From positions 52,452,001 through 52,516,000 of the forward strand of contig NC_135824.1 in NCBI RefSeq assembly GCF_964213995.1: DNA of 64,000 nucleotides, given 5' to 3'. A model generated the notes under the pieces. The model searched no databases. It was given only the letters and a program-made list of their open reading frames with translations, and was not told the DNA's origin. The position numbers and the translations under genes were made by a program. Below, piece after piece: positions 5,301 through 55,484 of the stretch; within the stretch, counting starts at the first letter, position 1; every line of letters starts with the position of its first letter. The DNA comes from Mustelus asterias. Its lineage: Eukaryota.

Positions 5301-5399
5301 TCCACCCGATAGGATCTCCACCTCCACCCAGAGACGGGACCCCCTAACGCCATTTACCCCCACCCTCCAAGGAGGGCCCCTTAACCGCCGTGCCCCCCC

Positions 5400-32548: not shown

Positions 32549-32704
32549 CTATCTGACCAAATGAAATGTGAGCCAGTACATGAAGATTGGTTGCACTGCT
32601 GCGATCGCCATGGTCAGGTACATGCGTAGCTGATTCCTCGTGCCTCGCACCAGGACGCCCTCGGCTGCAGCTTCAGACAGAATCTTCAGTCTCAATGTTC
32701 GAAT
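32549..32704 (-). CDS. YIF1B: YIF1B last coding exon: [51 protein letters not shown]
   Basis: Acceptor ttttcttttcag, TAG at 32551-32549; the C-terminus YWLTFHLVR matches YIF1B. Spliced CDS 894 nt (297 aa). Confidence 0.97.
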
Positions 32705-32998
32705 CTGAAAAGAAAACACTGTTTAGGAGATCTTTGGGATGGCATGGTGCTAAATGCACTGTCCAATGAAACTGAGCCATATGGATCAGGAAGGTCAGTG
32801 CCAAATTAGTTGATCTCAGCCAGGGCAGCAATAGTTACTGGTTGACCTCAGTGCCTTTGCATTAGGGAGAGAATTCAGCCATGATTTTTACTGCAGGAGA
32901 GTGAACATGTGGATGTCTGACAAGTTTAGAATTGGTGGATTATTCATTGTGCGAATGCAGCCACAAGGGGATCAGAGAGAGAGACAGACAGACACACA

Positions 32999-34770: not shown

Positions 34771-34799
34771 TGACAGCATCCCTGGAGTCTTATATCTTT

Positions 34800-35160
34800 C
34801 TAGAATAGAACCATGGTATCCTCACATTGCAGAGAGAGGCCATTTGGCCTGTCAAGTCTGTACCGACTCTCTGACAGAGTATCTTACCCAGGCTCTCTCT
34901 TCCGCTCTAATCCTGTAACCCCACACATTTACCCCGCAAATCTAATCAACCTACATATCGTGGGACACTAAGGGACAATTTAGCATGGCCAATCAACCTA
35001 ACCTGCACATCTTTGGGCTGTGGGAGGAAACCGGAGCACCCGGATGAAACCCACGCAGACACGAGGAGAACATGCAAACTCCACATGGTCACCCAAGGCC
35101 GGAATTGAACCCGGGTCCCTGGCGCTGTGCAATAGCAGTGCTAAACACTGTGCCACCGTG
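34800..35160 (-). mobile_element. V-SINE
   Basis: Reverse-complement head, core and tail. Confidence 0.88.
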
Positions 35161-35267
35161 TCCATGGAACCATTTCCCTGAGAGAATCAGGTCATGGTGA
35201 GAAGATATTGATGCATCAATGTTAACAAGTTGCGAAGCGAACAGGGAAGTTAAATAATTAAACCCAC

Positions 35268-35361
35268 CATGAACACCACAATTGAGATGCAGCACCAGCC
35301 CAGAGCAACGTAATATCCTGTTCTCCCAAAGATCAGCCCAGCCACGACTCCAGTGATCATC
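35268..35361 (-). CDS. YIF1B: YIF1B coding exon 7: [31 protein letters not shown]
   Basis: 94 nt, acceptor ttcttacccacag, donor ATG|GTGGGT; follows a 102-nt intron. Confidence 0.96.
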
Positions 35362-35463
35362 CTGTGGGTAAGAAATCAGGCGTTTTACAGATGACTACAG
35401 ACTTGCTTACTGCAATGACAACGGCGCCCACGGGGCCACCGACTCCATCGCTCACACACCTAC

Positions 35464-35619
35464 CCAACATACTTGTACCCGGCAAAAGCAACGAGATCGA
35501 TGGTGGTTAAGTCTGTGTTCACCGTGACCAGGTAGAGGCTGAGCAGGATAGCGAGCACCTCAATGACCAGCCAGATTAACGCTGAGCTGGCCTGCATCCC
35601 CAAAATCTCTGGAGAGAAC
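35464..35619 (-). CDS. YIF1B: YIF1B coding exon 6: [51 protein letters not shown](G)
   Basis: 156 nt, acceptor ttccccacag, donor GG|GTAGGT; [12 protein letters not shown] is YIF1B-type rather than YIF1A-type. Confidence 0.97.
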
Positions 35620-35959
35620 CTGTGGGGAAGAGAAATAAGTTAGTAAATGCTGGGTGTGCATCAGCATCTGCCTAGAAACCGTGGCACGATGAAAGACTGG
35701 GGGGCGATACACTTTATCGTGCAGAGACAGTACGGATTTGAATTCTTGGCCAATTCCGGTCACTCAGCGATGGAATTACTTCCCAGAGGAATCCTCTCTC
35801 GTACACTACCCAGCAGCCAGCCAGAGAACAGCATTAACTACAACACGTTTGTCATCGACTTTGGAATAGCACATTGTTTTGGGATGGGAGAATGAACATA
35901 TGAATCACAATAAAGAATTACAAACAGAGGAAGTGCTTGAAGCAAGAAAGTATTCCTCA

Positions 35960-36360
35960 GGCTGTGGTTCAGTGGGTAAAATTGTCCTCACCGAGTCAGA
36001 AGACTGTGGGTTCAAGTCCCAGGAGAACTAAAATCCTGGCGACACTCCAGTGGAGTACCAAGGCAGTGCCGCAGTGCCAAGGGAGTGCCGCAGTGTTGGA
36101 GGTGTGGTCTTTTGGATGCCACTTTGAACGGAAATCCCGACTGTCCCATCAGATTGGCATTAAAAAATCCCCTGGCATTATTTTGAGGAGGGGAATTTTC
36201 CCCAGTGCCCTGTCCAATATTTCTCGCTCAACCAACATCATCAAAAAGAAAACTACACAGGTTATCTGGTTGCTATTGTGGGAACTTGCGCTGTGCAAAT
36301 TGGCTTCTGCATTCTCTACATCACTATATTTTGACTGTAAAGCACTTTGAGATGTCCTAA
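35960..36360 (+). mobile_element. Deu-domain SINE (SacSINE1/AmnSINE1-like); related remnants at about 19480-19830 and 47735-48005
   Basis: tRNA-like head (GGTTCAGTGGGT...GGTTCAAGTCC), Deu-like core GTGCCGCAGTGTTGGAGGTG...CCCTGGCATTATTTTGA...CCAATATTT, tail CTGTAAAGCACTTTGAGATGTCC; family assignment from recall. Confidence 0.65.
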
Positions 36361-36515
36361 AGTCAAGCAAATTTTGTGCCAGCGCCCGGTCCCACTTCTG
36401 AAACATAATACATGAATAATGGTGAATCCCAATGGCCATTCTACTTAAACATCCTCAACACCCAGTTAGAGCAGAAAATGGGAAGCACCAAATGATGCGA
36501 CAAGAGGATCCTCAC

Positions 36516-36573
36516 CTGCTTTGAGTTCCAAGAGCAAACCCAGCTACCAGTAAGTATGTGATGAACGCCATTG
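36516..36573 (-). CDS. YIF1B: YIF1B coding exon 5: (A)MAFITYLLVAGFALGTQS(R)
   Basis: 58 nt, acceptor ctctctctcttcag, donor AG|GTGAGG. Confidence 0.96.
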
Positions 36574-36794
36574 CTGAAGAGAGAGAGAAGAGGACATAAG
36601 ACAGGGCGTGGACAGAGAGTCACGGTACATTGAACCAGTCTGCAATGAATATTTAATGACTTGTCTTTCACAATATTGTAAGCACCAACCAAAATGTGTG
36701 GTCACGCAATCAAATGCAATGAGCCTGACATAAGCGCAACACAAGTCTCTGCCCCCGCCCACATTCCGAGGACTCAATGAGCAATGCACAGCTA

Positions 36795-37100
36795 TGTGGC
36801 ACAGTGGTTAGCACTGCTGACTCACAGCGCCAAGAACCCAGGTTCGATTCCCGACTTGGGTCACTGTCTGTGTGGAGTCTGCACCTTCTCCCCGTGTCTG
36901 CGTCGGCTTCCTCCGGGTGCTCCAGTTTCCTCCCATAGTCCAAAAGATGTGCTGGTTAGGTGCATCGGCCCTGCTAAATTCTCCCTCACTGTACCTGGAC
37001 AGGGACTGGATTGTGCTGACTAGGGGGATTTTCATGGTAACTTAATTGCAGTGTCAATGTAAGCCTACTTGTGACACGAATAAAATAAACTTTAAACTTT
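36795..37100 (+). mobile_element. Tail-2 V-SINE
   Basis: Head, V-core and tail-2 ending AATAAAATAAACTTTAAAC. Confidence 0.9.
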
Positions 37101-37117
37101 TTAAAGCACGCTGGCAG

Positions 37118-38460
37118 TCATAAGAACATAAGAACTAGGAGCAGGAATAGGCCATCTGGCCCCTTGAGCCTGCTCCGCCATTCAAGAAGATCATGGCTGA
37201 TCTTTTCGTGGACTCAGCTCCACTTACCTGCCCGCTCACCATAACCCTTAATTCAAAGAACAAGAACAAAGAACAAAACAGCACAGGAACAGGCCCTTCG
37301 GCCCTCCAAGCCTGCGCCACTCATGTGCCCAACTAGACCATTTGTTTGTATCCCTCTATTCCCAGTCTGTTCATGTGGCTATCTAGATAAGTCTTAAACG
37401 ATCCCAGCGTGTCCGCCTCAATCACCTTGCTTGGGTGTGCATTCCAGGCCCCCACCACCCTCTGCGTAAAATACGTCCCCCTGACATCTGTGTTGAACCT
37501 TGCACCCCTCACCTTGAACCTTGCACCCCTCACCTTGAACCTGTGACCCCTTGTGTTCGTCACCTCCGACCTGGGAAAAAGCTTCCCACTGTTCACCCTA
37601 TCTATGCCCTTCATAATTTTATACACCTCTATTAGGTCACCCCTCATCCTCCAACTTTCCAGGGAGAACATCCCCAGTTTACCCAATCTCTCCTCATAGC
37701 TAAGACCCTCCATACCAGGCAACATCCTGGTAAACCTTTTCTGTACTCTCTCCAAAGCCTCCACGTCCTTCTGGTAGTGTGGCGACCAGAACTGGACGCA
37801 GTATTCCAAATGTGGCCTAACCAACGTTCTATACAGCTGCAACATCATATGCCAACTTTTATATTCTATGCCCCGTCCAATAAAGGCAAGCATGCCATAT
37901 GCCTTCTTCACCACCCTCTCCACCTGTGCTGCCACCTTTAAGGATCTGTGGACTTGTACACCCAGGTCCCTCTGTGTGTCTATACTCCTGATGGTTCTGC
38001 CATTTACTGTATAGCTCCCCCTTACATTAGATCTACCGAAATGCATCACTTCGCATTTATCTGGATTAAATTCCATCTGCCATTTCTCCGCCCAATGTTC
38101 CAGCCTATCTATATCCTGCTGTATTCTCTGACAATGTTCAACACGATCCGCAACTCCAGCAATCTTTGTGTCGTCTACAAACTTCCTTCCTTTACTGTTC
38201 AAAAATGTATCTATCCTTGCCTTACAAACATTCAATGAGGTAGCCTCAATTGCTTCACTGGGCAGAGAATTCCACAGATTCACAACCCTTTGGGTGAAGA
38301 AGTTCCCCTTCAACTCAGTCCTAAATCTGCTTCCCCTTATTTTCAGGCCATGCCCCCTAGTTCTAGTTTCACCTGCCAGTAGAAACAACCTCCCTGCTTC
38401 TATCTTATGTATTCCCTTCATCTTATGTTTCTATAAGATCTCCCCTCATTCTTCTGAATT
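37118..38460 (-). mobile_element. Nested CR1 LINEs: a young copy (about 37256-38180) inside the 3' end of another copy
   Basis: ORF 37333-38421 is chimeric, with two successive TRGH/FFTQRVV C-termini and an FVDDTKI RT motif between them. Confidence 0.9.
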
Positions 38461-38605
38461 CCTAAGATGAAGATATCAGAGGGCGGCTGGTGAATGAGTA
38501 GCGGTAATTCCAAGACTTTGTTTGCAAATTGACCAGAAATGTTGATCCCCTCAGGAAACCTTGCCAGCGACGTTGCAAATTCTACAGGTCAAGACAAAGC
38601 TTTGA

Positions 38606-38955
38606 GGGCGGCACGGTAGCACAGTGGTTAGCACTGCTGCTTCACAGCTCCAGGGACCTGGGTTCGATTCCCAGCTTGGGTCACTGTCTGTGTGGAGTTT
38701 GCACATTCTCCTCGTGTCTGCGTGGGTTTCCTCCGGGTGCTCCGGTTTCCTCCCACGGTCCAAAGATGTGCGGGTTAGGTTAATTGGCCATGCTAAAAAT
38801 TGTCCCTTAGTGTCCTGAGATGTGTAGGTTAGAGGATTAGTGGGTAAATGTGTAGGGATAAGGGGGTAGGGCCTGGCTGGGATTGTGGTCGGTGCAGACT
38901 CGATGGGCCAAATGGCCTCTTTCTGCACTGTAGGGATTCTATGATTCTATTCTAT
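38606..38955 (+). mobile_element. Full-length young HE1-type V-SINE
   Basis: GGGCGGCACGGTAGCACAGTGG head, B-box GGTTCGATTCC, tail ending in ATTCTATG repeats. Confidence 0.94.
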
Positions 38956-39338
38956 GAAAGCCAGTTTCACATTGTTGGGAGTCAGAGCTTACCCACACCG
39001 CTCAGAGTGTGAGAAACCACGCCATAACTGGGACGTGGTTCATGATTCACGCTCTCTGAAGACTATGGGTAAAATCACTCCCCCAGTAGCGGGGGTGCTC
39101 ATCACCGATCCGTGTGTTGAACCTCACAAATATTATGATTGTAACAAACAAAAAAAAACCCCAAAATACTGCAGATGCTGAAATATACAGCAGGTCTGGC
39201 AGCATCTGCGCAGTGAGAATCTTTTCAGATCTTTGACCTTTCACCAGAACTGGGCTGATCAGAGCGTCAGCCCACTTCCCCACTCGATCCAGAAACACTT
39301 CATGAGGCTGATTAATACTATACAGAGGTCGCACCTAC

Positions 39339-39417
39339 CTGGAATATATAAATCGGGAGCATTCACTTCGACCCTCGGGGCCACAGGGCTGTCCTGCTGG
39401 TATCGTACTTCCCAGCT
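39339..39417 (-). CDS. YIF1B: YIF1B coding exon 4: SWEVRYQQDSPVAPRVEVNAPDLYIP
   Basis: 79 nt, acceptor gagacag, donor CAG|GTAGGT; NAPDLYIP Yip1-domain motif. Confidence 0.96.
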
Positions 39418-39514
39418 CTGTCTCACAGAATTAAAGCAATAATTAGTTTGACAACAATCACACGAACTGAATGGGAAAACCTCCTCTTGGTCACTTCAGG
39501 AGAAAGTATATGAA

Positions 39515-40680
39515 CATGCAAATTAGGAGCAGAGGTAGGCCACTCAGCCCCTCGAGCCCGCTCCGTCATTCAGTAAGATCTTGGCTGATCTGATTGTAAC
39601 CTCAACCCTACATTCCTGCCTACCCCCTATAATCTTCCAGCCCCTTGTTAATCAAGAATCTATCTCACTCTGCCTTAAAAATATTCAAAGACTCTGCTTT
39701 CACTGCCTTTTGAGGAAGAGAGATCCAAAGACTCTCAACCCTCAGCGTATAAAATTCTCCTCATCTGTCTTAAACGAGCGACCCCTTATTTTTAAAGTGA
39801 CCCCCCCCCCCCCACTAGTTCTAGGTTCTCCGACAAGCAGAAACACCCACCCCACATCTACCCTGTCAACATTGCTCAAGATCTTAAACGTTTTGATCAC
39901 GTTGCCTCTTTCTTGTTCTAAACGCTAGTGGATGCAAGCTTAGCCTCTCCAACCGTTCCTCGTTCAGGCAACCCGCTCATTCCTGGTATTAGTCTAGGGT
40001 ACTCAGAGGTTCCCAACTAGTGGCCCCAAAAGTGGACCGCAAAATAAACTATGTGGCCGGCATCGCCAAGTCCCGATGAATCTCGGGCCTCCCACGCATG
40101 TGCCAGCTGGGATTGGGTCACACATGTGCAATTTGGATTGTTTTTAATATCGTGTTTGCGTGTATATTTATTGTTGTCACAAGTAGGCATACATCAACAC
40201 TGCAATGAAGTTACTGTGAAAATTCCTTACTCGCCACACTCGGGCGCCTGTTTGGGCACACTGAGGGAGAATTTAGCATGGCCAATGCACCTAACCAGCA
40301 CGTCTTTCGGACTTGTGGGAGGAAACCCACGCAGACACGGGGAGAACATGCAAACTGTACACAGGCACCCAAGCCCGGAATCGAACCTGGGTCCCTGGCG
40401 CTGAGGCAGCAATGCTAACCACTGTGCCACCGTTGGTGATTCGAGTTGTGCATGCGCCAGCTGGGAATGGGCCACAAATGCGCAGTTTGGATTTTGTACA
40501 TTGGCACAAGGACCCTAACTGATGTGTAAAATTCAGAATGGCGCATGCACGGCCCATTCCAGGCCGGCGCACGCAAGTTTCGGATTGTCAACATAAAACA
40601 TTCCGAACCGTGCATGTGCGGTCCTTTCCTGGATGACACAAGCATAGGAGATCCCAGGTTCTTTGGGAATTGGAGTTGAA
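39515..40680. mobile_element. CR1 3' fragment (39515-39995, -), then a hAT-like non-autonomous element (about 40004-40680) carrying a tail-2 V-SINE (40165-40432, -)
   Basis: CR1 tail in reverse complement; CAGAGGTTCCCAAC start and repeated GCGCATGC/GCATGCGC motifs. Confidence 0.6.
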
Positions 40681-41049
40681 GACAGAGGCCTGGTGCACCT
40701 GTGCACAAACATGAAAGGGAGGTTGAGAACAATAACAGGAGAGAAGACAAGGAGAAATTTAAAAAAACAGCGTGGGAAGATGACGCAGGGAAGAAACAGG
40801 AACCAATGAATTTAAGAAAAGGAGAGACAGGCTCCAATATTGTATTGGACACGCAAACGGTGGAGGCTTTCATTGTAAACATCTTAAACGAATGAAAATT
40901 GTGTTAAATGGTGGCTTGACATGTTTTTAGGAGGTTTGGGAGTTTAAAACATTTTGCGAGAGGGCAGTTCAGTTGGAGAGAATAAGAGGTCTGCCTCAGA
41001 TGTTTTTATAATATAAAGGTGTGCCGTGAACTAAAGTTTGGGAATCACT

Positions 41050-43085
41050 GGTCGAGTAAACCTCCGAGCTGTTTCTAATGCATTTACATCTTTCCTTAGA
41101 TAAGGAGACCAACACCGTACACAATACTCCAGATGCGGCCTCACCTGTACTAAAGCATAAACCTTCCTACATTTGCAATTAATTGATGTCATATACATGG
41201 ATTTTAGTAAGGCGTTTGATAAGGTCCCCCATGGTCGGCTTATGATGAAAGTGAGGTGGTGTGGGATAGAGGGAAAGTTGGCCGATTGGATAGGTAACTG
41301 GCTGTCTGATCGAAGACAGAGGGTGGTGGTGGATGGAAAATTTTCGGATTGGAGGCAGGTTGCTAGCGGAGTGCCACAGGGATCAGTGCTTGGTCCTCTG
41401 CTCTTTGTGATTTTTATTAATGACTTAGAGGAGGGGGCTGAAGGGTGGATCAGTAAATTTGCTGATGACACCAAGATTGGTGGAGTAGTGGATGAGGTGG
41501 AGGGCTGTTGTAGGCTGCAAAGAGACATAGATAGGATGCAAAGCTGGGCTGAAAAATGGCAAATGGAGTTTAACCCTGATTCATTTTGGTAGGACTAATT
41601 TAAATGTGGATTACAGGGTCAAAGGTAGGGTTCTGAAGACTGTGGAGGAACAGAGGTTCCTCCACAGTCTTCAGAACTGGGGTTCTGAAGACTGGGGTCC
41701 ATATCCACAGATCTCTAAAGGTTGCCACTCAAGAGGATAGAGCTGTGAAGAAGGCCTATAGTGTGTTAGCTTTTATTAACAGGGGGTTGGAGTTTAAGAG
41801 CCGTGGGGTTATGCTGCAACTGTACAGGACCATGGTGAGACCACATTTGGAATATTGTGTGCAGTTCTGGTCACCTCACTATAAGAAGGATGTGGAAGCG
41901 CTGGAAAGAGTGCAGAGGAGATTTACCAGGATTTGGGAGGTTTGGAGGGTAGGTCTTATGAGGAAAGGTTGAGGGAGCTAGGGCTGTTCTCTCTGGAGCG
42001 GAGGAGGCTGAGGGGAGACTTAATAGAGGTTTATAAAATAATGAAGGGGATAGATAGAGTGAACATTCAAAGACTATTTCCTCGGGTGGATGGAGCTGTT
42101 ACAAGGGGGCATAACTATAGGATTCGTGGTGGGAGAAACAGGAAGGATATCAGAGGTAGGTTCTTTACGCAGAGAGTGGTTGGGGCGTGGAATGGACTGC
42201 CTGCAGTGATAGTGGAGTCAGACACTTTAGGAACATTTAAGCGGTTATTGGATAGGCACATGGAGCACACCAGGATGATAGGGAGTGGGATAGCTTGATC
42301 TTGGTTTCAGATAAAGCTCGGCACAACATCGTGGGCCGAAGGGCCTGTTCTGTGCTGTACTGTTCTATGTTCTAATTCCCCTCACAATAAATGATAACAT
42401 TCTATTAACTTTCCTAATTACTTGCTGTACTTGCCTTTTGTGATTCATGCACTTGGACACTCAGGTCCCTCTGCAAATCAGAGCTCTGTAATCTCTAACC
42501 ATTTAGACAGTAAGCTTCTTTCTCCACCCCATTAACCAGCTGATCTCCTGCAGTACTACGCTTAGATCATTATTTTTAATGCATTTTTATTGTGAGCATT
42601 TCTGGCCATCAGACCTTAGGAAGGATATACTGACTTTGGAGGAAGCGCAAGGGGAATTACCAGAATGATACCCGGATTTCAAGGGTTAAATTATGAGTTG
42701 AGATTACTAAAACTAGGGTTGCACTCCCTGGAATTTAGAATGTTAAGATTTCATCCAAGTAATTAAGACATTGAGGGGAACAGACAAAGTAGATTTGGAG
42801 AAATTATTTTTGCTGGTTGGGAAGTCGAGGACTAGGTGGAGAATAGTCTAAAACATTAGACCCCCTCAGAAGCGAAATTAAGCAGTAATTCTACATGCAG
42901 GGTGGTGTTTGGAACTCACCTCTGCAAATGGCAACTGGTGCTAGATCGATGATTAATTTAAAAAATATGAATGATAAGATTCTTGTTACCCAAAGGTGTG
43001 AAGGGATTTGGGGCAAAGGCAGGTATATGGGGTTAGGTTGCAGATCAGTCTTGAAGGGCCAAATGGTCTTCTCCTGTTCCTATAT
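41050..43085. mobile_element. CR1 cluster: a plus-strand RT-containing copy (41180-42372) nested in a minus-strand copy, then a decayed copy (42600-43085, +)
   Basis: [22 protein letters not shown] and [10 protein letters not shown] motifs in ORF 41173-41592. Confidence 0.92.
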
Positions 43086-43789
43086 AATCAACTCTTGTTT
43101 TCCCCCACTGTAAATGTCCATTTGTCCCTCAATTAGGAATGTTGACGTACCTCCAGCTCTTCCCCCACCCCCTCCCAGCATGTTACTCTAGTCTCACGCT
43201 ATGAGGTTGATTTTTAATGCCTTCTGGGTAACTTGGGATGGGGTTTCCCAGTGCAAAGACCATCACCGAAACAAAGGGTCCCTCAACACAAACCAGCACC
43301 AGATACGAGAACACTCCTCGAACATCACCCTGCAGACTCTGAGGGACACCTGCATGCCTGTCCTCTCATAGTACAACTGTCAGGTTCAAATCTCCCTTCT
43401 TTGGGGTCCCCTGATGGTGCTCCAGCTACGTCACATTATACCCCTCAATGCTCATGGTACCAAACAGCGACAGAGGGCTGTGCTGGAAGTGAGGAAGTGC
43501 ATGTCCCTCTAAAGATGATTTCATTTTCCTGCTGCTTGGTGCAAAACAGCCCCAGCCGATCGTGGTAAATGGTTCCTAGCCACTGGAAACCTCATTTAAC
43601 AAAACGGTTGTGCAACAGAAAGGAGCTCAAAGGGCCGCATGTCATAACACCTCCCCAAGGACACTCCCAAAGCAAACCGTAGATTTTGAGAACTGATCAC
43701 CTGGTGAACTTATTCTCAGCGTCTCCCACTGACACGAGCTGACAAATGCAACATCTTCCCTGACAACTCAACTTGCAAAGCTTGCAAAA

Positions 43790-44190
43790 GGGCAACACGG
43801 TGGCATAGTGGTTAGCACTGCTGCCTCACAGCGTCGGGGACTCGGTTTCGATTCCCGGCTTAGGTCACTGTCTGTGCAGAGTCTGCACGTTCTCCCCTAT
43901 CTGCGTGGGTTTCCCCCGGGGGACTCCGGTTTCCTCCCGCATTCCAAAGATGTGCAGGTTAGGTGGATTGGCCATGCTAAATTGCCCCTTGGTGTCCAAA
44001 GATGTGCAGGTTAGGTGAATTGGCCATGCTAAATTGCCCCTTAGTGTCCCAAGGTGTGTAGGTTAGGAGGATTAGTTGGATAAACATGGGGTTAGGGCAG
44101 GGAGTGGACCTGGATAGGATGCTCTGTCAGAGAGTTGGTGCAGACTCGATGGGCCGAATGGCCTCCTTCTGCACTGTAGGGATTCTATGA
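43790..44190 (+). mobile_element. V-SINE with a duplicated 52-bp unit
   Basis: Head, core, two 52-bp units and tail. Confidence 0.9.
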
Positions 44191-44333
44191 AATCCCTTCA
44201 CTAGCGGAAGATCCAGTGAGTTTCAAGGCAGTAGCATGACTCGCTTTTTAACCATCGTGTTACACTCTACAGCTTTGCTTTCCTGATTAATAAGCGTCAA
44301 GATGAATCACCAGTGAAAGGCCACCTCTCTTAC

Positions 44334-44438
44334 CTGGTGCATGTAGGGAAAGATGAGGAGTCCCAGCTTCTTTCCGACATAAACAGTGTCCACAGCAAAA
44401 TAATATTTCAATTTGCTCACTGGAATAAGTCGATCGAT
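44334..44438 (-). CDS. YIF1B: YIF1B coding exon 3: [35 protein letters not shown]
   Basis: Acceptor ttctgcag, donor CAG|GTAAGA, 105 nt; [10 protein letters not shown] motif of the Yif1 family. Confidence 0.97.
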
Positions 44439-45329
44439 CTGCAGAAGTCAGGCAAAAAGGGTTCAATCACTCTCCACTACATGGCTTTCAGAACCATACG
44501 GAGGGGTTAAGAAGAAAAACACAGAATGAAAGGTCCCAATGATATGAAAACATTTTAGTCAATCTGTACAGTATTGCTGCTGAGGAATTGAAGACAATGA
44601 CTTGCTCAAATGATCCCTCGACTGGGCGGGAGTCGGGACCTGAAGATTTCTCGGTCAAGACACAGACTTTCAGAGCTAATGAGGCTCTAGTGTCAGACAT
44701 ACTCCTGTAAGGTGGGCTATTCCATAGTCACATCCTCCCCAAACCCTTAGCCAGACCAATCCCAATGAGGAATGGCAAGGTGTGATGTGACTGGGGGCAC
44801 GCGATTGACCAGTTCACTTATGCTGGGGGTCTGTCATGGGTATGGTTGCCAATTCCTCGGTTAAAGGGCTGCTGTCTTTCGGTACACTGCAGCTGGGCTG
44901 ATTGGCAGGAGGGAGAATGGTGAAGCTAGTGGAGTACTGGCCTCAGAGTTAAAGTTTCACCAGGGTACATTCCAGGACCCTCATAGACACTGCTGGGGCA
45001 GAAGCAGAGAATTCTCCTATCGCTGGTGGATGTTACCAGTGCCTTATCATGGTTAGGAATATGTTTGATGCCTTCGACCCTGGATCCTGCATTCACTACC
45101 TCTCCCTTCTTGTGTTTTCTGTTGTTTGCCAGTAAGCCCACCAGTGACATGTCTGACCCCCTTGGAATCTCTAGGAAGCATCTCTTCCTTTTCTTAAAGC
45201 GAATGGGGAGAAGCTTCAAGAGTCCTGCAACGAATCAACTAACCCATCACCTCAGGATGACTCCCCACAAACTGATTGGCGAGCTTTTAATCTATACCGT
45301 AAACGCCAGGCCTGTGAACAAATGAACCC

Positions 45330-45660
45330 ACTGGGCTGCATTTTCCAGCTCTTCCTCGCTGGCGGAATCCTCTGGCCCCGCCAAACATGACACCCTGCGG
45401 CAGGACAGGCAAGCCACGCAAAACCGCGTAGACCAAGAGGGGACTGGGAGATCCTGCCAACAGCCAATGGCAAGCCTCCTTCATTGCCAGTGAAAACATG
45501 CCTTGAGCTGGGGGACGGAGATTCCCGCTTTTGGCTGGAATTTTACTGTCCCACCCGCCAGGGGAATCAGAGCAGGTGAGGGGCGGAACATGGAAAGGTC
45601 TGTTGGCCGCGAACGGGATTTTCCAGTTTCGGGGCGAGCGAGGCCGGAAAATCCCACCCT
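45330..45660. mobile_element. GC-rich MITE(s) with termini resembling GGCxGxATTTT...AAAATCCCxCC (possibly PIF/Harbinger); related copy at about 55680-55800
   Basis: GGGCTGCATTTTCC and GGCTGGAATTTT starts, GGAAAATCCCACCC end; internal similarity to 55690-55790. Confidence 0.5.
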
Positions 45661-45949
45661 TTGTCTCAGTGGGTGATGATTTGACACCAATACAAACAGC
45701 CTTTGATGAAGTACGTCACCCAATCGTAACTCATTCCTGAAACTTTTCTGGAACAATGGTTAATAAATCCTGAAACACCTTTCTCTCAATTTAAACTGCA
45801 ATAGAACCGGTTGTGCCCATTCTCTCTCTCTTCACTCTCTAATTCAAAGTCAACAGTCCATCCAGAGGTAGAATTCTAATGCTACTCATTCCATCCATTG
45901 GAATTTACCAGAGAGAAAGGGGCCTGTACCCACCTTGCCCTGTGTTAAC

Positions 45950-46640
45950 TGTAACTCATCCAAAATCCTGCTCTCCACCTCCTAGCTTGTCTTGTCCCGT
46001 TCATCTATTATTGATGATTCACATTGGCTCCCAATCCAGCAAAGGCTGATTTAAAAAATCCTCCCTTGCCTTTACTCTTCCCCCATCTCTGTAACCCTCT
46101 CCAGCCCTACGACATTCACAAAATCGTGCACTCCTCTTATTCTGGCCTTTTGCGCATCCCCGGTTTCCATCACTCTGCCATTGTTGGCCATGTCTTTAGC
46201 CACCTGGGCCCTTAAAACTTTAGGATTCCCTTCCTAAACCAGTCCATTTCCCTACCTCGCTCTCCTTGTTCAAGGAGCTGCTTGATACCCAAGTCTTTGA
46301 TACCCAAGGACCTGGGTTCGATTCCCGGCTTGGGTCACTGTCTGTGTGGAGTTTGCACATTCTCCTCGTGTCTGCGTGGGTTTCCTCTGGGTGCTCCGGT
46401 TTCCTCCCACAGTCCAAAGATGTGAGGGTTAGGTTGATTGGCCATGCTAAAATTGCCCCTTAATGTCCTGAGATGCGTAGGTTAGAGGGATCAGTGGGTA
46501 AAATATGTAGGGATATGGGGGTAAGGCCTGGGTGGGATTGTGGTCGGTGCAGACTCGATGGGCCGAATGGCCTCTTTCTGTACTGTAGGGTTTCTATGAT
46601 CTTTGGCCAAGCTTTTGGTCACCTATCCCGATATCTCCTT
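45950..46640 (+). mobile_element. L2-like LINE 3' remnant with an inserted V-SINE (46305-46600)
   Basis: CATTGGCTCCC...CCCATCTCTGTAACC...CCTTCCTAAACC resembles an L2 3' region; SINE core and tail are clear. Confidence 0.65.
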
Positions 46641-47152
46641 GCGTGGCTCGCTATCAAATTCAGTTCTATAATCGCTCCTGCGAAATGCTTTCGAGACATT
46701 TTGCTCGCTGTTGTACCCAACTCCACAAATTGAAGGCACGACCCAGACAAGGAGCAACAAACGTCAAGTGGGGGTAAACAAAGCCAACGTGAAGCAAACC
46801 GCTGAGGCCAGATATTAGCACCGGTACAGATTCTGTGATGTGCTTCTCTGCGTTAACCAAACAAACCAATTCACAATGTGGGATAAATTAAAAATGCAGT
46901 CCCCTAAAGGGATACTGCATCAAAGTAAAAAGAATCTCAACAGAAACTTAAATACATCAAAAGAAAATGTGACTAAAGGGGTCAATAAAACAGCCCAATC
47001 CTTGCAGTGCCCACTGGGTAGATTATGTGATGTCCATGTGTGCACTCAGCATATGTGGTCCAGGAACTATTTGGTAAAGAGACAGACCCCTATATTGTGT
47101 GGAGAATAATTAACGATTAATTCCTACTTCCCCCCCCACCCTTTCTGCTCAC

Positions 47153-47373
47153 GTTTTGATCGACAATGTTCTTGCCCTGACTCGCCAAACTGCTGCCATA
47201 AGCCATCGCCAGGTTAGACACCACGGGGTCGCTGAGGAAGCCCTGCCCCGAAGGGCCAAAGCCAGCACCGCTGCCCTCGTATCCTGGAGCATCCATGTTC
47301 CCGCTGGTATCTTCAAAGAGGTGGCTGGGGTCGCCTGCGACGGGCATCGGCCCCCTCGTTCTCGCCTTGGCAG
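47153..47373 (-). CDS. YIF1B: YIF1B coding exon 2: (P)AKARTRGPMPVAGDPSHLFEDTS...[27 protein letters not shown]
   Basis: Acceptor ctctctattccag, donor AAC|GTGAGC, 221 nt; LF(E/D)DTS and DPVSN.[9 protein letters not shown] motifs. Confidence 0.95.
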
Positions 47374-48004
47374 CTGGAATAGAGAGTGACAGAATAAGGT
47401 GACCCTTGTCGTAACCGGGCTATGAATTCAAAATCACCTTAATCGATGAAGTGTCAATCTTCTGTAGAGGGGTTCACACACGGTTGTAGAATTTCCTCTC
47501 GCCCCCCCCTCCCTCAGCAGAAATACAGAAGCTGTGGATGAATTTCAGAGACCCTTTGAAATGTGTTTAAAAACTCTGAAAGTCATCAGGGCCCCTACCC
47601 TTCTAATTCCACAACAAAATGAGCAACAAAGCAATTATTTTGCCGTGTCAGCAAGAGAAAGGTTGCACAGGGACTTTTAATTCTAAATTGGGTCAGGCCA
47701 CAGGATATATATTTGGACTTCCTTTTACTGAGCGACTGCTGCACTGACCCTTGGATGAGACATGTTAAACCGAAGCCTGGTCTCCTTCCTGGGGTTGATG
47801 TAAAAGGTCCCACAACATGATTTCAAAGATGAGCAAAAGTCTCCCTCATCCCTCGACCAATGCTGCCAAAAGTTGCCTGGTCATTATCAAACTGCTGAAT
47901 GTGGCAGCTTGCTACACAGAAATGCACATTTCTTACATTACAACAATGACTAGAACTCAAAAAAACTTCACTGTCTATAAAGTACGACGCAAGGTCCCAA
48001 GGAT

Positions 48005-48625
48005 GTGAAACTGAACTGGACCAGCCATATAAATACTGTGTCTACAAGAGCGGGTCAGAGGCTGGAATACTGCAGACTCTCCAGAGAGCCTGTCACCATC
48101 TACAAGTCAGGAGTATGATGGAATACTCTGCACCTACCTGGGTGAGTACAGCTCCAACAACACGCAGGAAGCTCAACACCATCCAGGACAAAGCAGCCCC
48201 CCTTGATTGGCACCCCTTCCACCATCTTAATCATTCGCTCCCTCCTCCACCGACAAACAGTGGCAGCAGTGTGTACCGTTTTAAGATGCACTGCAGGAAC
48301 TCACTAAGGCTCCTTCAACAGCACCTTCCAAATCTCTACCATCTAGAAGGGCAAGGGCAGTAGACCCACGGGAATACCCCCCCCCACCCCCGGGGGTTCC
48401 TCTCCAAGTCACTCACCATCCTGACTTGGAACTATAATCGCTGTCCCTTCCCTGTCGCTGGGTCAAATTCCTGGAACTCCCACTCTAACAGTACTGTGGA
48501 TGTACCTACCCCTCAGGACTGCAGCGGTTCAAGAAGGTAGCTCACCACCACCTTCTCAAGGATAACTAGGGATGAGCAATACACACTGGCCCAGCCAGTG
48601 ATGCCCACATCCCACTAATGAATAA
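48005..48625 (+). mobile_element. LINE 3' fragment of a second CR1/L2-group family (tails also at about 3205-3350, 51215-51780 and 63000-63890, -)
   Basis: VRSMMEYSAPTWVSTAPTT.RKLNTIQDKAA ORF2 motif; tail CAGCGGTTCAAGAAGG...CACCACCACCTTCTCAAG. Confidence 0.75.
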
Positions 48626-48889
48626 AATATGTATATACAAGTGCAAGTCTTCCTTGTTTATTGAATATCGTCAGAACCATTTTACAAAATAGTTAAGATC
48701 TGAATTCCGTTAACACATGTTCCCACGGGCAGATAAGATGATTGGAAGTGGGTGAGAATCCACAGATGGAATATAATTTAAGTGTGAAACTCTCCACTTT
48801 GATTGAAAAAACACTTCACTGCTTACTCCAATTCAGGATCATGAGAACTCGGAGCCTATCGTGACATACACTGCAGGACTTACTCAGTT

Positions 48890-50716
48890 AATGGTAGGGC
48901 GTTGGGGAGAGTTACAGAACAAAGAGATCTAGGGGTACATGTTTGTAGCTCCTTGAAAGTGAAGTCACAGGTGGACAGAGTGGTGAAGAAGGCATTCGGC
49001 GTGCTTGGTTTCATCGGTCAGAACATTGAATACAGGAGTTGGAATGTCTTGTTGAAGTTGTACAAGACATTGATAAGGCCACACTTGGAATACTGTGTGC
49101 AGTTCTGGTCACCCCATTATAGAAAGGATATTATTAAACAAGAAAGAGTGCAGAAAAGATTGACAAGGATGCTACCGGGCCTTGATGGTTTGAGTTATAA
49201 GAAGAGGCTGGATAGACTGGGACTTTTTTCTCTGGAGCGCAGAAGGCTGAGGGGTGATCTTATAGAGGTCTATAAAATAATGAGTGGCACAGATCAGCTA
49301 GATAGTCAATATCTTTTCCCAAAGGTAGGGGAGTCTAAAACTAGAGGGCATAGGTTTAAGGTGAGAGGGAAGAGATGCAAAAGTGTCCAGAGGGGGCAAT
49401 TTTTTCACTCAGAGGGTGGTGAGTGGCTGGAACAAGCTGCCAGAGGTAGTAGTAGAGGCGGGTAGAATTTTGTCTTTTAAAAAGCATTTAAACAGTTACA
49501 TGGGTAAGATGGGTATAGAGGGATATGGGCCAAATGCGGGCAATTGGGACTAGCTTAGGTGTTTAAAATAAAAGGGTGCATGGAAAGATGGGCAGAAGGG
49601 ACTGTTTCCATGCTGTAAACCTCTATGACACTGGGTGGTAGGCAAGGGGCACCCAGGAGGAAGGAGGAGGATTGTACAGAACATGCGGGGGTCCACAGGT
49701 GAGCACTCACCTGATAAAGGAGCAGTGCTCTGAAAGCTTGTGGCTTGTGCTACCAAATAAACCTGTTGGACTTTAAACCTGGTATTGTGAGACTTCTTAC
49801 TGTGCTTACCCCAGTCCAACGCCGGCATCTCCACATCACGATGAGTCTCGAACCAGGGGACACAGGTTGGGACAGAGATGAGGAGGAATTTCTTCATACA
49901 GAGGGTGGTGAATCTTTGGAATTCTCTACCCCAGCTCAATCACTGAACATGTTCAAGACAGAAATCCGTGGATTTCTGAAGACTAATGACATTTGGGGAT
50001 AGCATAGGCAAAGGGGTGATGAGGTCACCCTTAATCTAATTGAATGGCAGAGCAGGCGCGAGGGACTGAATAGCCTGCTCCTGTCCCTCTGTTCCTAATC
50101 CCCTTCACAATTTTAAAAGGTTCCCACCTCTGTCTTCCCTTTTCCAGAAAAAAAATGTAGGAAATGGACATAATGAACAAAGTGCAGACCCTCCAGTGGG
50201 AGAGAGAGAGGAAGGAAATTAGAAAGAGCGCAAAAGAGATTTACAAGGATGCTACTGGGACTTGATGGTTTGAGTTATAAGGAGAGGCTGATTAGACGGA
50301 GACTTTTTTCCTCTGGAGCTTAGAAGGCTGAGGGGTGATCTTATAGAGGTCTATAAAATAATGAGGGACACAGATCAGCTAGATAGTCAACATCTTTTCC
50401 CAAAGGTAGGGGACTCTAAAACTAGAGGGCATAGGTTTAAGGTGAGAGGCGAGAGATACAAAAGGGTCCAGAGGGGCCATTTTTTCACACAGAGGGTGGT
50501 GAGTGTCTGGAACAAGCTGCCAGAGGTAGTAGTAGGGGCGGGTACAATTTTGTCTTTTAAAAAACGTTTAGACAGTTACATGGGTAAGATGGGTATAGAG
50601 GGATATGGGCCAAATGCGGGCAATTGGGACTAGCTTAGGGGTTAAAACAAAAGAAGGGCAGCATGGACAAGTTGGACCGAAGGGCCTGTTTCCATGCTGT
50701 AAACCTCTATGACTCT
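48890..50716 (+). mobile_element. Two near-identical CR1 3' ends (48890-49630 and 50225-50716), with a Penelope-like terminus (49700-49838) and a decayed CR1 piece between them
   Basis: LIRPHLEYCVQFWSP, TRGHRFKV, shared tail GGGCCAAATGCGGGCAATTGGGACTAG. Confidence 0.9.
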
Positions 50717-51286
50717 AAGGGCTGCACAACTTTAACTTAAAGCTCAGATTCAGTAACATTGGGAGCAACTTTTCAATTCCTGCAAAGGATTCCAAGAGTT
50801 AAAGCAACACAACCTCAAAAATTATAGCAATGTCAAGTTACTATGACTGCCTTGTTCCAGCCAAAACAGTATGGTGAACATTGGAACAGGGTAGATAGAT
50901 GTTTAGTATCTTGAGACTATTCCATTATTCAGCGAGATCGTGGCTGGTCTGTCACCAAACTCTTTCCCCAGATCCTTTAATGTTTTCCGTTAACTGAAGT
51001 CAATCAATCAGATTCAAAATTAACTGTTAGCTAGCATCAACTGCCTTTTTCAATTTGGTTTCATATCACCCCACGACTTCGCCCCTTCCCTATCTCTGGA
51101 ATTTCCTTCAGCCCCATAAACCTCAAGAGATATTTGGCTTCTCAAGCATACCCCAATTTTAATTTCTCCACCATTGGTGGCCATACTTTCAGCTGCCTGG
51201 GCCCCAAGAGTTCCATGTTGCGAATGGCGTGCCGATCAAGCGGGCTACTTCATCTTAGATGGTGTCGAGCTTCTTGAATGTTGTTG

Positions 51287-51472
51287 AGAGGTCACAGCAG
51301 GTTTATTTGAAATCACAAGCTATTGAGGTGCTACTCCTTCGTCCGGTGACTTCACCTGACAACGGGGCAGCGCCCCGAAAGCTTGTGATTTCAAATAAAC
51401 CCGCTGGACTATAACCTGGTGCCGTGTGACCTCTCATCTTGTCCACCCAGGTCCAACACCGGCATCTCCACA
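51287..51472. mobile_element. Older Penelope-like fold-back insertion with a 15-bp target duplication (one mismatch)
   Basis: TCTTGAATGTTGTTG at 51272-51286 and TCTTGAGTGTTGTTG at 51473-51487; hammerhead-like CTGACAACGGGGCAGCGCCCCGAAAGC. Confidence 0.75.
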
Positions 51473-51623
51473 TCTTGAGTGTTGTTGGAGCTGCACTCAT
51501 CCAGGCAAGTGGAGTATTCCATCACACTCCGAACTTGTAGATGGCTGGTGGACAGGCTTTGGGGAGTCAGGAGATGGGTTTCTCACTGCAAGATTCCCAG
51601 ACTCTGACCTGCTCTTGTAGTCA

Positions 51624-51723
51624 TGATGTGGAGATGCCGGCGTTGGACTGGGGTAAACACAGTAAGAAGTCTCACAACACCAGGTTAAAGTCCGACTTTA
51701 ACCTGGTGTTGTGAGACTTCTTA
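51624..51723. mobile_element. Penelope-like fold-back insertion with a 15-bp target duplication
   Basis: TSD CTGCTCTTGTAGTCA at 51609-51623 and 51724-51738; perfect inverted arms of about 33 bp. Confidence 0.82.
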
Positions 51724-51946
51724 CTGCTCTTGTAGTCACAGTATTTATATGGCTGGTCCAGTTCCGCTTCTGGTCAACGATAACCGCATGGTGTCCAATG
51801 ACAGCACATTCCCTTCCCCAATATGGGATCCAGCATACCACATTTCCTCCTCAGTTTGAGGTGGGGCAGAGGGGGGCATCCCTCCTCTACTCCATTCCCC
51901 CTCAATCTTCTTTGGGGCTTCTTTGGGCTATCCCATTCCCACTTGA

Positions 51947-52240
51947 GGGCAGCACAGTGGTTAGCACAGCTGCCTCACAGCGCCAGGGACCCGGGTTCAA
52001 TTCCGGCCTCGGTCTGTGTGGAGTTTGCACATTCTCTTCCCGTGTCTGCGTGGGTTTCCTCCGGGTGCTCCGGTTTCCTCCCACACCCCAAAGATGTGCG
52101 GGTTAGGTGGATTGGCTATGCTAAATTGCGCTTTAGTGTCTTGGGGATTAGCGGGGTAAATACGTGGGGTTACGGGGGATAGGACCTGCGTGGGATTGAT
52201 GTGGCAGCAGGCTGGATGGCCTCCTTCTGCACTGTAGGGA
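51947..52240 (+). mobile_element. V-SINE
   Basis: Head, core and tail. Confidence 0.9.
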
Positions 52241-52439
52241 CTCAGTCTGGGGGAGGGGATTCTTTGGGCTATCCCATTCGCCCCCACGTGGGGGTGATCC
52301 CACTCCCCAATTTGGGGTGGGGTGTTTCTTTGGGATATTTTGCAACTCAGCAGGAGGGGGGGGGTTGTGGTTCTGGAATATCCCATTCCCCAGTCTTGAA
52401 AGGTGTCCCTGGGCTATTCTATTCCCACCCCTCCCCAAG

Positions 52440-52680
52440 TTTTGGGTGGGGGTGGGGGAGCAGATTGACTCTGGAAGATCCCATTCCCTAATTTTGGGGG
52501 GGGGGGGGGGGGGGGGGGAATGACTCTGGAAGATCCCATTCCCTAATTTGGGGGGGGGGGCAGATTGACTCTGGAAGATCCCACTCCCTAATTGGGGGGG
52601 GGGGGGGGGGGGAGGGACAGAGTGACTCTGGAAGATCCCACTCCCTAATTGGGAGGAGGGGGGGGGGGTGGAACATTCCA
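52440..52680. repeat. Short minisatellite in YIF1B intron 1: 4 copies of GACTCTGGAAGATCCCA(T/C)TCCCTAATT followed by G-runs, with degenerate copies on both sides
   Basis: Core at about 52468, 52522, 52568 and 52625; G-runs of up to about 23 nt. Confidence 0.9.
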
Positions 52681-52819
52681 TTTGTCTCACATGGAGGGGA
52701 GGGTCTGCGGAATATTCCATTTAGAATGGGGTGAATTGGAGGGTCTCTGGGCGATGCCACTCCCGAGTCTGGGGGCGGGGATGTGAGGGGGTGGTCTCTG
52801 GAATATCCCATTCCCCACA

Positions 52820-53720
52820 TTCCCGGTATAGCGGGTCCCTGGCAGTCAGCTGTCGCTGCGTTCCTCTTCCCGTTCGCCAGTTTACCGGACACGGATAACG
52901 AGGGAACTTTGACAGCCGCCTCCGCCACCGTCGCATGGACAATCCATTTGGAGAGAGAGACTGAGGCCACGTACGTAACTTACGCTGTCTAAATCGGCTG
53001 TTCTCCATCGCTTCGCCCGTCCCGCGCGCGCACTTGAGCTCGAGCCCCAACCGCTGGAGGGGATGGGAAGCTCTCGCAGGCTGTCTGATTGACGGCCAAT
53101 CAGCGGGCGCATTCCAGCAGCGGGGCGGGCACCAAGCTGATTGACAGCTACACTCACCAATCAGCGGGCGTATTCCAGATGTGGGCGGGCGACAAGCTGA
53201 TTGACAGCTACAACTGCCAATCAATGGTCGCCCTCCAGCTGTGGGGCTCGCGGCTGGCTGATTGACAGCCAGTCAATGGGCGCCTTCCAGCAGCGGGGCG
53301 GGCGGCAGGCTGATTGACAGCTCCAACTGCCAATCGATGGGCGCCCTCCAGCTGTGGGCTCGCGGCTGGCTGATTGACAGCCAAACAGTGGGCGCCTTCC
53401 AGCAACAGGGCGGGCAGCTGGATGATTGACAGCCATCTTCGCCAATCAATGGGCGTCCTCCAGCAGTGGGGAATCGCAGCTGACTGATAGACAGCCACAG
53501 CCGCCAATCAGTGGGCGCCTGCCAAGAATGACGTCTCACACAACCCCTTGCATTGCCCCCGCCCAACGGCGTCGCCCTCCTCCCACGCCGCAACCAGTGC
53601 GCAGGCGCGGTGACGGAGCCCTCTGGCAGCCTACTTTTCGTACGGCCGACCGAATTTCAGGGGTGGCAATTAAAGTCACGGACGACTGGACTGTTGGAGA
53701 AAGCAGCCCGCAGCCGACCA
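52820..53720. promoter_or_regulatory. YIF1B: YIF1B CpG-island promoter containing a tandem TGATTGACAG/CCAAT/GC-box array (53086-53508)
   Basis: CpG-dense; eight repeat units 52-62 bp apart; NRF1-like TGCGCAGGCGCG near 53598 and CRE-like TGACGTC near 53529. Confidence 0.85.
52984..53008 (-). CDS. YIF1B: YIF1B coding exon 1: MENSRFRQ (an alternative donor at 52975 adds RKL)
   Basis: ATG at 53008 (GCGATGG) inside a CpG island; donor C|GTAAGT; phase 1 matches the next exon. Confidence 0.85.
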
Positions 53721-53874
53721 GAGGACAATCCCTTTAACAGGAAGTTCCCAGCGTCTGAGGAGTGTCAATCACTGGGAGTGGGTGACAGACAGGACAGCCC
53801 AAGGAGGGAGAGAACCATTTCCTTTCCCAACCTGGAAAAGTGCAAAAAAGGCATAGTACCAGAATTAAGAGGTT

Positions 53875-54965: not shown

Positions 54966-55484
54966 GTACTGCCCCAGTTATACCCATCAGTAAAGATTGT
55001 TGGTGATGTTTTCTCTCTAAAACTCCAGAATACACTGCCTGCGAGTGTGGTGGGGGTTGGTTCAATTGAGGCATTCAAGAGGATGTTAAATGATTATTTG
55101 AATAAAAATAATGTGCAGGGTTACGGGAGAAAAGGCAGGAGAATGGCACCTAGTCATAATGCTCATTCAGAGAGCCGGTGCAGATAGAGTGGGCAGAATG
55201 GTTTCCTACCGCACCCTAACAATTTTGTGATGTTTGCAAAAAAAGTTGACCTGATCAATATCTTTTGAGATTATGAAGGGGGTTCCAAATGGTTGTAATT
55301 TAAGCGCCAAACCAACTGGCATAGGCAAGCATGCTGTGCCAAATTTTCTGATATAGAAATTCACGATATCTGTCCAGTGTGAAAATAAAAATTAAACCGG
55401 GACACTCCACAAGAGAATTATGGAACAAAATCTGACACCAAGCCACATAAGGTGCTATAAGAGCTGATGACCAAAAGGTTGACT

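What the first reader, a model, noticed from the sequence alone, without database searches (positions are those of the whole stretch)
53086..53508. YIF1B promoter is a tandem array of Pbx-Prep/Meis decamer + CCAAT + GC-box modules
Seen: starting 78 bp upstream of the ATG are eight units. Six have perfect TGATTGACAG (53138, 53198, 53259, 53311, 53371, 53423) and two have single mismatches (53086, 53485). Five are followed by CCAAT exactly 9 nt later (53157, 53217, 53330, 53442, 53504), and GGGCGGG boxes lie between several. Spacings are 52, 60, 61, 52, 60, 52 and 62 bp, near 5-6 helical turns with a 112-bp higher-order pattern. Linkers have diverged while the motifs and the 9-nt gap are kept. 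Known: TGATTGACAG is the TALE (Pbx-Prep/Meis) decamer, which co-occurs with NF-Y CCAAT boxes at promoters. Inference: tandem amplification of a composite element under selection, giving an unusually dense TALE/NF-Y/Sp platform that may be copy-number tunable and bidirectional.
Basis: partly seen in the sequence, partly recalled or inferred. Interest (0 to 1): 0.75.

Follow-up and report, generated by a model that had tools for sequence, protein, structure and literature searches.

The report
Shark promoter repeat of TALE/NF-Y sites
The start of a shark's YIF1B gene is built from eight head-to-tail copies of a short unit, five of which match a known paired docking site for the PBX-PREP and NF-Y gene switches; a related species has only six copies and many unrelated repeats in this genome carry the same motif, so it is likely one case of a common process that multiplies promoter sites rather than a special tuning device.

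Summary
The array is real: eight units at 53086-53508, six perfect decamers against 0.11 expected, 78 bp upstream of the minus-strand YIF1B ATG. Five long units match the published DECA-11 bp-CCAAT element bound by PBX/PREP, NF-Y and Sp2. The three 52-bp units lack the 9-nt spacer altogether, which explains the spacing pattern; helical phasing and bidirectionality are unsupported. Decamers are better kept than linkers under a matched null. A related species has six units, lost in register. The array's sequence is unique, but its type is not: 30 unrelated decamer-repeat loci on the first contigs against 5 genome-wide for the reversed motif; 14 of 30 flank CpG-rich DNA against 3 of 100 background; six lie just upstream of host coding sequence. 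NF-Y and YY1-type motifs behave alike. Best reading: mutation-driven tandem amplification of a bound promoter site, with motifs kept by purifying selection and copy number largely redundant. No binding or expression was measured. The scan noted similar arrays before on other DNA (e1-9598423, e1-9519716, e1-9093718).

The parts
53086..53508 (.). Eight-unit tandem array (units 52-62 bp; pairwise identity 67-93%) with a partial 112-bp long+short higher-order repeat
53086..53137 (+). Unit 1, short type: decamer with one mismatch, CCAAT directly abutting at 53096, GC box 53123. Nearest the ATG; probably at or inside the transcribed 5' end
   Evidence: spliced copy in organism C runs on into this unit (table 7)
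53138..53197 (+). Unit 2, long type: decamer, 9 nt, CCAAT 53157, GC box 53183. Segment 53156-53215 is absent in organism C
53198..53258 (+). Unit 3, long type: decamer, 9 nt, CCAAT 53217
53259..53310 (+). Unit 4, short type: decamer, no spacer, CCAAT box with one mismatch (intact in organism C by the listed change at 53272), GC box 53296
53311..53370 (+). Unit 5, long type: decamer, 9 nt, CCAAT 53330; 93% identical to unit 3
53371..53422 (+). Unit 6, short type: decamer, no spacer, CCAAT box with one mismatch, GC box 53408. Absent in organism C
53423..53484 (+). Unit 7, long type: decamer, 9 nt, CCAAT 53442
53485..53508 (+). Unit 8, long type, cut short: decamer with one mismatch, 9 nt, CCAAT 53504
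52984..53008 (-). YIF1B coding exon 1 (ATG 53008; GT donor after 52984, a second GT after 52975 would give the RQRKL form seen in P0001)
47153..47373 (-). YIF1B exon 2; 75-76% identical to YIF1B of two sharks
32552..53008 (-). YIF1B coding span (eight coding blocks by tblastn)
52750..53750 (.). CpG-rich promoter region (500-bp windows GC 0.55-0.63, CpG o/e 0.61-0.86)
53529..53534 (.). CRE-like half site just beyond the array (label recalled)
53599..53608 (.). NRF1-like site (label recalled)

Best explanation
The array is an old tandem amplification of a decamer-CCAAT unit at the start of the YIF1B gene, whose five long units match the known PBX/PREP + NF-Y + Sp2 element and are likely bound by that complex, likely keeping the promoter open. 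Shown: the repeat, the 11-bp geometry in five units, better-kept motifs, and two whole units missing in register in a relative. Inferred: a bound site was first duplicated by the mutational bias reported at germline binding sites in humans, the array then grew and shrank by unequal exchange or slippage, purifying selection kept the motifs, and the exact copy number is largely redundant. The three short units would bind either TALE or NF-Y but not the cooperative complex.
For: Geometry: decamer + 9 nt + CCAAT equals GAnnGAC-11bp-CCAAT (introduction). This gap is preferred in this genome: 502 matches vs 4 reversed; with a 10-nt gap 181 vs 10; on contigs C1-C7, 60 listed vs 12. Motif retention: mismatches 2/77 cells in the decamer, 2/40 in CCAAT, 13/48 in the spacer, 45/272 elsewhere; under a matched null the decamer scores 0.020 against a median 0.267 (minimum 0.15) for 21 eligible other 10-mers; in other arrays 10 of 14 lie below the median, 3 above, 1 tie, p 0.025. 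CCAAT is intact in 5 of 5 long units and 1 of 3 short units. Age and turnover: organism C (two studies) lacks 53156-53215 and unit 6, and the first loss leaves a hybrid unit with the 9-nt gap; the duplicated segments are 85% alike while the two species differ by about 5-8% (table 8), so the units predate the split and C more likely lost them. Recurrence: the first 100 of 535 decamer-pair matches fall in 30 loci on C1-C11 vs 5 loci genome-wide for the reversed motif; CpG-rich flank at 13 of 29, plus L066, vs 3 of 100 background points and 0 of 5 reversed-motif arrays; host coding sequence runs away from the array at six loci. NF-Y 10-mer pairs 365 vs 1, YY1-type pairs 42 vs 0. Mechanism precedent: insertions duplicate bound motifs in human spermatogonia (PMC8559717).
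Against: No binding, accessibility or expression was measured. Motif conservation inside the array is not significant if the best window is chosen after the fact (p 0.17), and units are related by descent, so cells are not independent. Sign test across arrays with CpG columns removed: 10 lower, 4 higher, 1 tie of 15, p 0.18. Between species only 1 of 10 listed changes hits a motif where 2.8 are expected (p 0.18); 23 rows were hidden, the one hit is in a decamer, and segment 53216-53358 is no better kept than the flanks (12/143 vs 20/409 and 22/369). A one-base mutant decamer gives more pair matches (1015) than the decamer, 99 of the first 100 from one satellite, so match counts alone prove nothing. 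16 of 30 decamer-pair loci have no CpG-rich flank, and 19 of 26 loci scanned gave no gene. The human insertions are 5-20 bp, shorter than these units, and the passages read do not name PBX or NF-Y.
Confidence: 0.6

Rival explanations
1. Adaptive tuning knob: each added long unit raises YIF1B output, and copy number is selected, as for the human TRIB3 promoter repeat.
For: Copy number differs between species, 8 vs 6; the unit carries a complete composite element; TRIB3 33-bp repeat raises reporter and tissue expression with copy number (PMC7425993 abstract).
Against: Units are 67-93% identical, far more diverged than an actively changing repeat is expected to be; the one same-species run laid shows no length variant; three of eight units have lost the cooperative geometry; a relative does with fewer.
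Confidence: 0.15
2. Neutral GC-rich minisatellite: promoter DNA is repeat-prone here, one original site was copied along, and the extra motifs do nothing. Their apparent conservation comes from how the array was picked, or from the small inverted repeat that each unit forms.
For: The window is rich in minisatellites (86 TRF rows). Each unit has 7-nt inverted arms matching at 5-7 positions; single-strand fold z = -2.2. Post-hoc best-window p 0.17. Cross-species test inconclusive.
Against: The matched null removes the two selecting copies and still ranks the decamer first among 21 windows; most other decamer arrays have no CCAAT arm yet keep the decamer better than linkers; spacer length stays 9 nt in all five long units although its letters drift.
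Confidence: 0.17
3. Relic of a transposon or LTR promoter that was captured at YIF1B.
For: One of seven loci with a composite followed by a second decamer lies upstream of a protease-reverse transcriptase ORF (L064). NF-Y sites in LTR repeats are documented in human (PMC4889920 passages).
Against: BLAST finds the array once in 3.68 Gb (the tool warns that common words are skipped). Best hits to 76 other motif loci are 17-29 bp and centred on the motif. No Rfam match.
Confidence: 0.06

Closest known systems
DECA-CCAAT composite element bound by PBX/PREP, NF-Y and Sp2 (bioRxiv 10.64898/2026.02.16.706105; zebrafish: PMC6023610, bioRxiv 10.1101/720102)
   Same: Decamer and CCAAT on one strand, 11 bp from GAC to CCAAT, in a promoter; the mouse Sp2 promoter has two such sites and a third at 10 bp.
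   Different: Here five composites arise from a recognisable head-to-tail repeat with shared linkers, mixed with three spacer-less units, in a cartilaginous fish; binding not shown.
Promoter VNTRs carrying a factor site, e.g. human TRIB3 33-bp repeat (PMC7425993, abstract)
   Same: Tandem copies of a unit that holds a complete regulatory element; copy number varies.
   Different: Units here are old and diverged, with two unit types; variation is seen between species only; no effect on expression shown.
Homotypic site clusters made by motif-duplicating germline insertions (PMC8559717)
   Same: Tandem duplication multiplies a binding motif at regulatory sites, for several unrelated factors.
   Different: Reported insertions are 5-20 bp single events in humans; here units are 19-62 bp, with up to 84 copies at one other locus.

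Membership tests
DECA-CCAAT (TALE/NF-Y/Sp2) composite element | GAnnGAC followed after 11 bp by CCAAT on the same strand | tested here: met
   5 of 8 units (2, 3, 5, 7, 8); units 1, 4, 6 lack the spacer (definition)
DECA-CCAAT (TALE/NF-Y/Sp2) composite element | Located in a promoter or enhancer | tested here: met
   78 bp from the YIF1B ATG in CpG-rich DNA; start site bounded only indirectly
DECA-CCAAT (TALE/NF-Y/Sp2) composite element | Occupied by PBX/PREP, NF-Y and Sp2 | not testable with these tools
   needs CUT&RUN, footprinting or EMSA
DECA-CCAAT (TALE/NF-Y/Sp2) composite element | Motif positions constrained across species | tested here: inconclusive
   1 of 10 listed changes in motifs, 2.8 expected, p 0.18; table cut
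Promoter minisatellite / VNTR | Head-to-tail units of 10-100 bp at one locus | tested here: met
Promoter minisatellite / VNTR | Copy number varies by whole units | tested here: met
   between species: two units missing in organism C, two studies
Promoter minisatellite / VNTR | Length polymorphism within the species | tested here: inconclusive
   only 1 of 5 listed same-species runs was laid; it equals the window
Expression-tuning VNTR (TRIB3 type) | Expression scales with copy number | not testable with these tools
   needs reporters or paired genotype and RNA
Bidirectional promoter | Divergent gene start within about 1 kb | tested here: not met
   150 of 152 plus-strand ORFs of 62 aa or more in the next 50 kb scanned; first host domain about 17.6 kb away. 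Non-coding or short exons are not excluded
Transposon- or LTR-derived promoter | Dispersed homologous copies | tested here: not met
   single BLAST match in G000; motif-only hits; old relics could be missed

The most novel reading that the evidence does not exclude
In this large shark genome, sites bound by constitutive promoter factors (PBX/PREP, NF-Y, YY1) act as seeds of minisatellites: dozens of unrelated repeats each carry one motif per unit, many beside gene starts, with the motif kept while linkers drift. Promoter architecture would then be rebuilt repeatedly by binding-driven tandem amplification, the long-unit, many-copy end point of the duplication bias seen in the human germline, and YIF1B would be the case where a whole TALE/NF-Y/Sp2 module was amplified.
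Probability: 0.4. Interest if true: 0.7.

Novelty: new variant of a known kind. Interest (0 to 1): 0.45.

Why it matters
The single array is a modest addition: a known element, repeated. It matters more as a clean specimen of a genome-wide pattern. If bound promoter sites seed minisatellites, clusters of like sites need no adaptive origin, and shark genomes offer dozens of independent natural replicates to separate mutation bias from selection. The array also holds its own controls: long units with the 11-bp geometry beside spacer-less units, and an 8-unit and a 6-unit version in two species, which test directly whether TALE/NF-Y/Sp2 modules add up.

Tried and rejected
Helical phasing: spacings are 4.95-5.9 turns, and 21 array periods show no phase (Rayleigh p 0.13-0.16; the sample is also shaped by the 50-64 bp search range). 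Divergent gene: none found nearby. Structured RNA: no Rfam match in 51000-56000; DNA fold z -2.2 only. Processed YIF1B copy in G000 to place the start site: 8 matches, all single exons of this gene or of a second locus on C1410. No RNA holder listed for the stretch; this says nothing on expression. Run X1 has one contig over 52733-53776 and no cover beyond 53776 in the stretch laid; not used as evidence of accessibility. Match counts as a measure of enrichment were dropped for locus counts after a one-base mutant gave 1015 matches, mostly one satellite; its locus number stays unknown (none on C1, where the decamer has 4; forward strand 12 vs 328). The complete list of cross-species changes in the array was not obtained, so that test rests on 10 listed positions. 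Pfam hits at L065 and at L096-L097 were set aside as repeat or sub-threshold matches. Rows dropped: 15 of 35 other loci had no TRF array and 5 had under two usable units; one search kept 14 loci with period 25 or more and 4 or more copies; the Pfam scan took 26 of 35 loci, picked for CpG-rich flanks; 11 NF-Y loci were picked from the first 100 of 365 matches. Look-alike search among the scan's windows found nothing. Literature searches listed no paper on tandem DECA-CCAAT arrays, the YIF1B promoter's structure or shark promoter minisatellites (listings only; subscription papers are missing). bioRxiv supplements were not seen and could list multi-copy DECA-CCAAT promoters.

Full report
Observation. 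Six perfect decamers lie in 300 bp, against 0.11 expected in the whole shuffled window; two more have one mismatch. Spacings, the five CCAAT boxes at a 9-nt gap and four GGGCGGG boxes are confirmed. TRF reports periods 52, 61 and 112. A same-species contig equals the window over 52733-53776, so the length is not an assembly error, although that run may be the assembly's own sample.

The gene. Exon 2 hits YIF1B of cartilaginous fishes best (75-76% to two sharks), and tblastn places eight coding blocks from 53008 down to 32552 on the minus strand. Exon 1 begins at the ATG at 53008 and splices in frame to an AG acceptor at 47373. The organism is therefore most likely a shark (inference). The array sits in CpG-rich DNA. 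A contig in organism C, seen in two studies and about 84% like the window, joins exon 1 directly to an exon-2-like sequence and, on its other side, runs on into unit 1's decamer (tables 7 and 8; compared by eye on the 30 letters shown). It looks like a processed copy, which would put the start site at or above 53092, so unit 1 may be 5' UTR rather than upstream DNA.

Anatomy. The alignment shows two unit types. Long units (2, 3, 5, 7, 8) have decamer, 9 nt, CCAAT. Short units (1, 4, 6) lack exactly that spacer. The 52/61 pattern and the 112-bp higher-order repeat follow from this, with no need for helical phasing; 21 array periods show no phase either. CCAAT is intact in 5 of 5 long and 1 of 3 short units. 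Mismatches per cell: decamer 2/77, CCAAT 2/40, spacer 13/48, rest 45/272. For pre-specified columns p is 0.009, for the best window after the fact 0.17. A matched null that drops two perfect copies and treats every other 10-mer alike ranks the decamer first: 0.020 against a median of 0.267. The units share descent, so these p values are generous.

What the unit is. Decamer + 9 nt + CCAAT is the published GAnnGAC-11bp-CCAAT element, bound by PBX/PREP and NF-Y and clamped by the N-terminus of Sp2, whose zinc fingers are dispensable (bioRxiv 10.64898/2026.02.16.706105; parts 1-2 of 7, passages and section 24 read). Zebrafish data show DECA sites about 20 bp from NF-Y sites and co-occupied elements near promoters (PMC6023610 and 10.1101/720102, passages). 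The same gap is favoured in this genome: 502 exact matches vs 4 reversed, and 181 vs 10 with one more base. 16 of 27 fetched composite loci have a CpG-rich flank. So the element is known and common; binding in shark is inferred.

History. Organism C differs by about 5-8% over the region and lacks two blocks: 53156-53215, and unit 6 (60 skipped, 9 other letters between), in runs from two studies. That leaves six units; the first loss makes a hybrid unit that keeps the 9-nt gap. The duplicated blocks are only 85% alike within the window, so they are older than the species split and C more likely lost them. Contig assembly could in principle collapse repeats, but 85% identity makes that unlikely. 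Of ten listed changes in the array one hits a motif (2.8 expected, p 0.18); 23 rows were hidden, so this test is inconclusive.

One of many. The array's sequence occurs once in the genome and shares only motif-length matches with other loci. Its type recurs. A composite followed by a second decamer within 26-56 nt occurs 11 times at 7 loci vs 0 reversed; one is an unrelated 62-bp array above a pantothenate-kinase first exon, in the same orientation as here. Decamer pairs 50-64 bp apart give 535 matches; the first 100 fall in 30 loci on C1-C11 with unrelated units of 19-62 bp; the reversed motif gives 29 matches at 5 loci genome-wide. A one-base mutant gives 1015 matches, 99 of the first 100 from one satellite, which is why I count loci. 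A CpG-rich 300-bp window lies within 800 bp outside the array at 13 of 29 loci, plus L066, vs 3 of 100 background points (p 1e-7) and 0 of 5 reversed-motif arrays. Of 26 loci scanned, six have host coding sequence within about 900 bp running away from the array (bromodomain, Got1/Sft2, LRR N-terminal, HLH, a weak 3-hydroxyacyl-CoA dehydrogenase hit, and the kinase), one precedes a retroelement ORF, and 19 gave nothing. The decamer is better kept than other 10-mers in 10 of 14 arrays (p 0.025). The pattern is not TALE-specific: NF-Y 10-mer pairs 365 vs 1 (4 of 11 fetched loci CpG-flanked) and YY1-type pairs 42 vs 0 (motif labels recalled). These motifs are also more frequent as single sites at promoters, which I could not correct for.

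Mechanism. In human spermatogonia, 5-20 bp insertions are enriched at bound sites and often duplicate the motif, building clusters (PMC8559717; abstract, passages and section 7). I infer a like first step here, then growth and loss of whole units by unequal exchange or slippage, with purifying selection on motifs and little on copy number (0.6). Rivals: an expression knob as at TRIB3 (PMC7425993, abstract; 0.15), a neutral minisatellite (0.17), a transposon relic (0.06; NF-Y sites in LTRs, PMC4889920 passages). Bidirectional use has no support: the first plus-strand host domain found is about 17.6 kb away.

Novelty. The element is known and promoter repeats with factor sites are known. Eight searches listed no description of tandem DECA-CCAAT arrays or of motif-bearing promoter minisatellites in sharks. 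The scan's own notes report similar arrays in this and other genomes; these are unchecked leads. Verdict: a real, new variant of a known kind, interest 0.45, most of it from the genome-wide pattern.

Noticed in passing
L032:1926-3357 (G000:C1:12.72 Mb): About 36 copies of a 34-bp decamer + GC-box unit end about 70 bp before an ATG whose exon weakly matches 3-hydroxyacyl-CoA dehydrogenase; a far larger promoter array than YIF1B's.
   Followed up: partly
L066:2953-3147 (G000:C1:177.44 Mb): Unrelated 62-bp array of decamer-9 nt-CCAAT + GC box above a pantothenate kinase 3-like first exon; same design and orientation as at YIF1B.
   Followed up: yes
window 52984-53059, runs X6 and X10: Organism C holds a diverged, intron-less YIF1B-like copy whose 5' side reaches into unit 1; none was found in G000.
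   Followed up: partly
window 53085-53511: Each unit is a small inverted repeat: the start of the decamer pairs with the end of the CCAAT box (5-7 of 7 nt), and the decamer is one base from an inverted CCAAT box (the minus-strand match at 53214). The composite may arise from a pair of inverted CCAAT boxes.
   Followed up: partly
L064:2943-3120 and 3606-5999 (G000:C70:17.33 Mb): A short decamer-CCAAT cluster lies upstream of a long protease-reverse transcriptase ORF, so some retroelements here carry the element.
   Followed up: no
G000:C8:4.6-5.8 Mb and 50.2-50.9 Mb; C71, C75: Runs of near-identical decamer-CCAAT sites spaced tens of kb apart suggest tandem gene families that each carry the composite.
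   Followed up: no
window 52444-52668: A second, poly-G-interrupted repeat (period 45-55) starts about 320 bp into YIF1B intron 1.
   Followed up: no
window 52975-52984: Two GT donors 9 nt apart would give two N-termini (with or without three residues), both seen among relatives' YIF1B isoforms.
   Followed up: partly
window 53776, run X1: The contig ends in what looks like a Tn5 adapter (recalled); the library type is not on record.
   Followed up: no
L095:7165-7356, L098:4570-5169 and 8195-9139: Plus-strand neighbours beyond the window: a phospholipase A2 exon and two immunoglobulin V-set exons.
   Followed up: no
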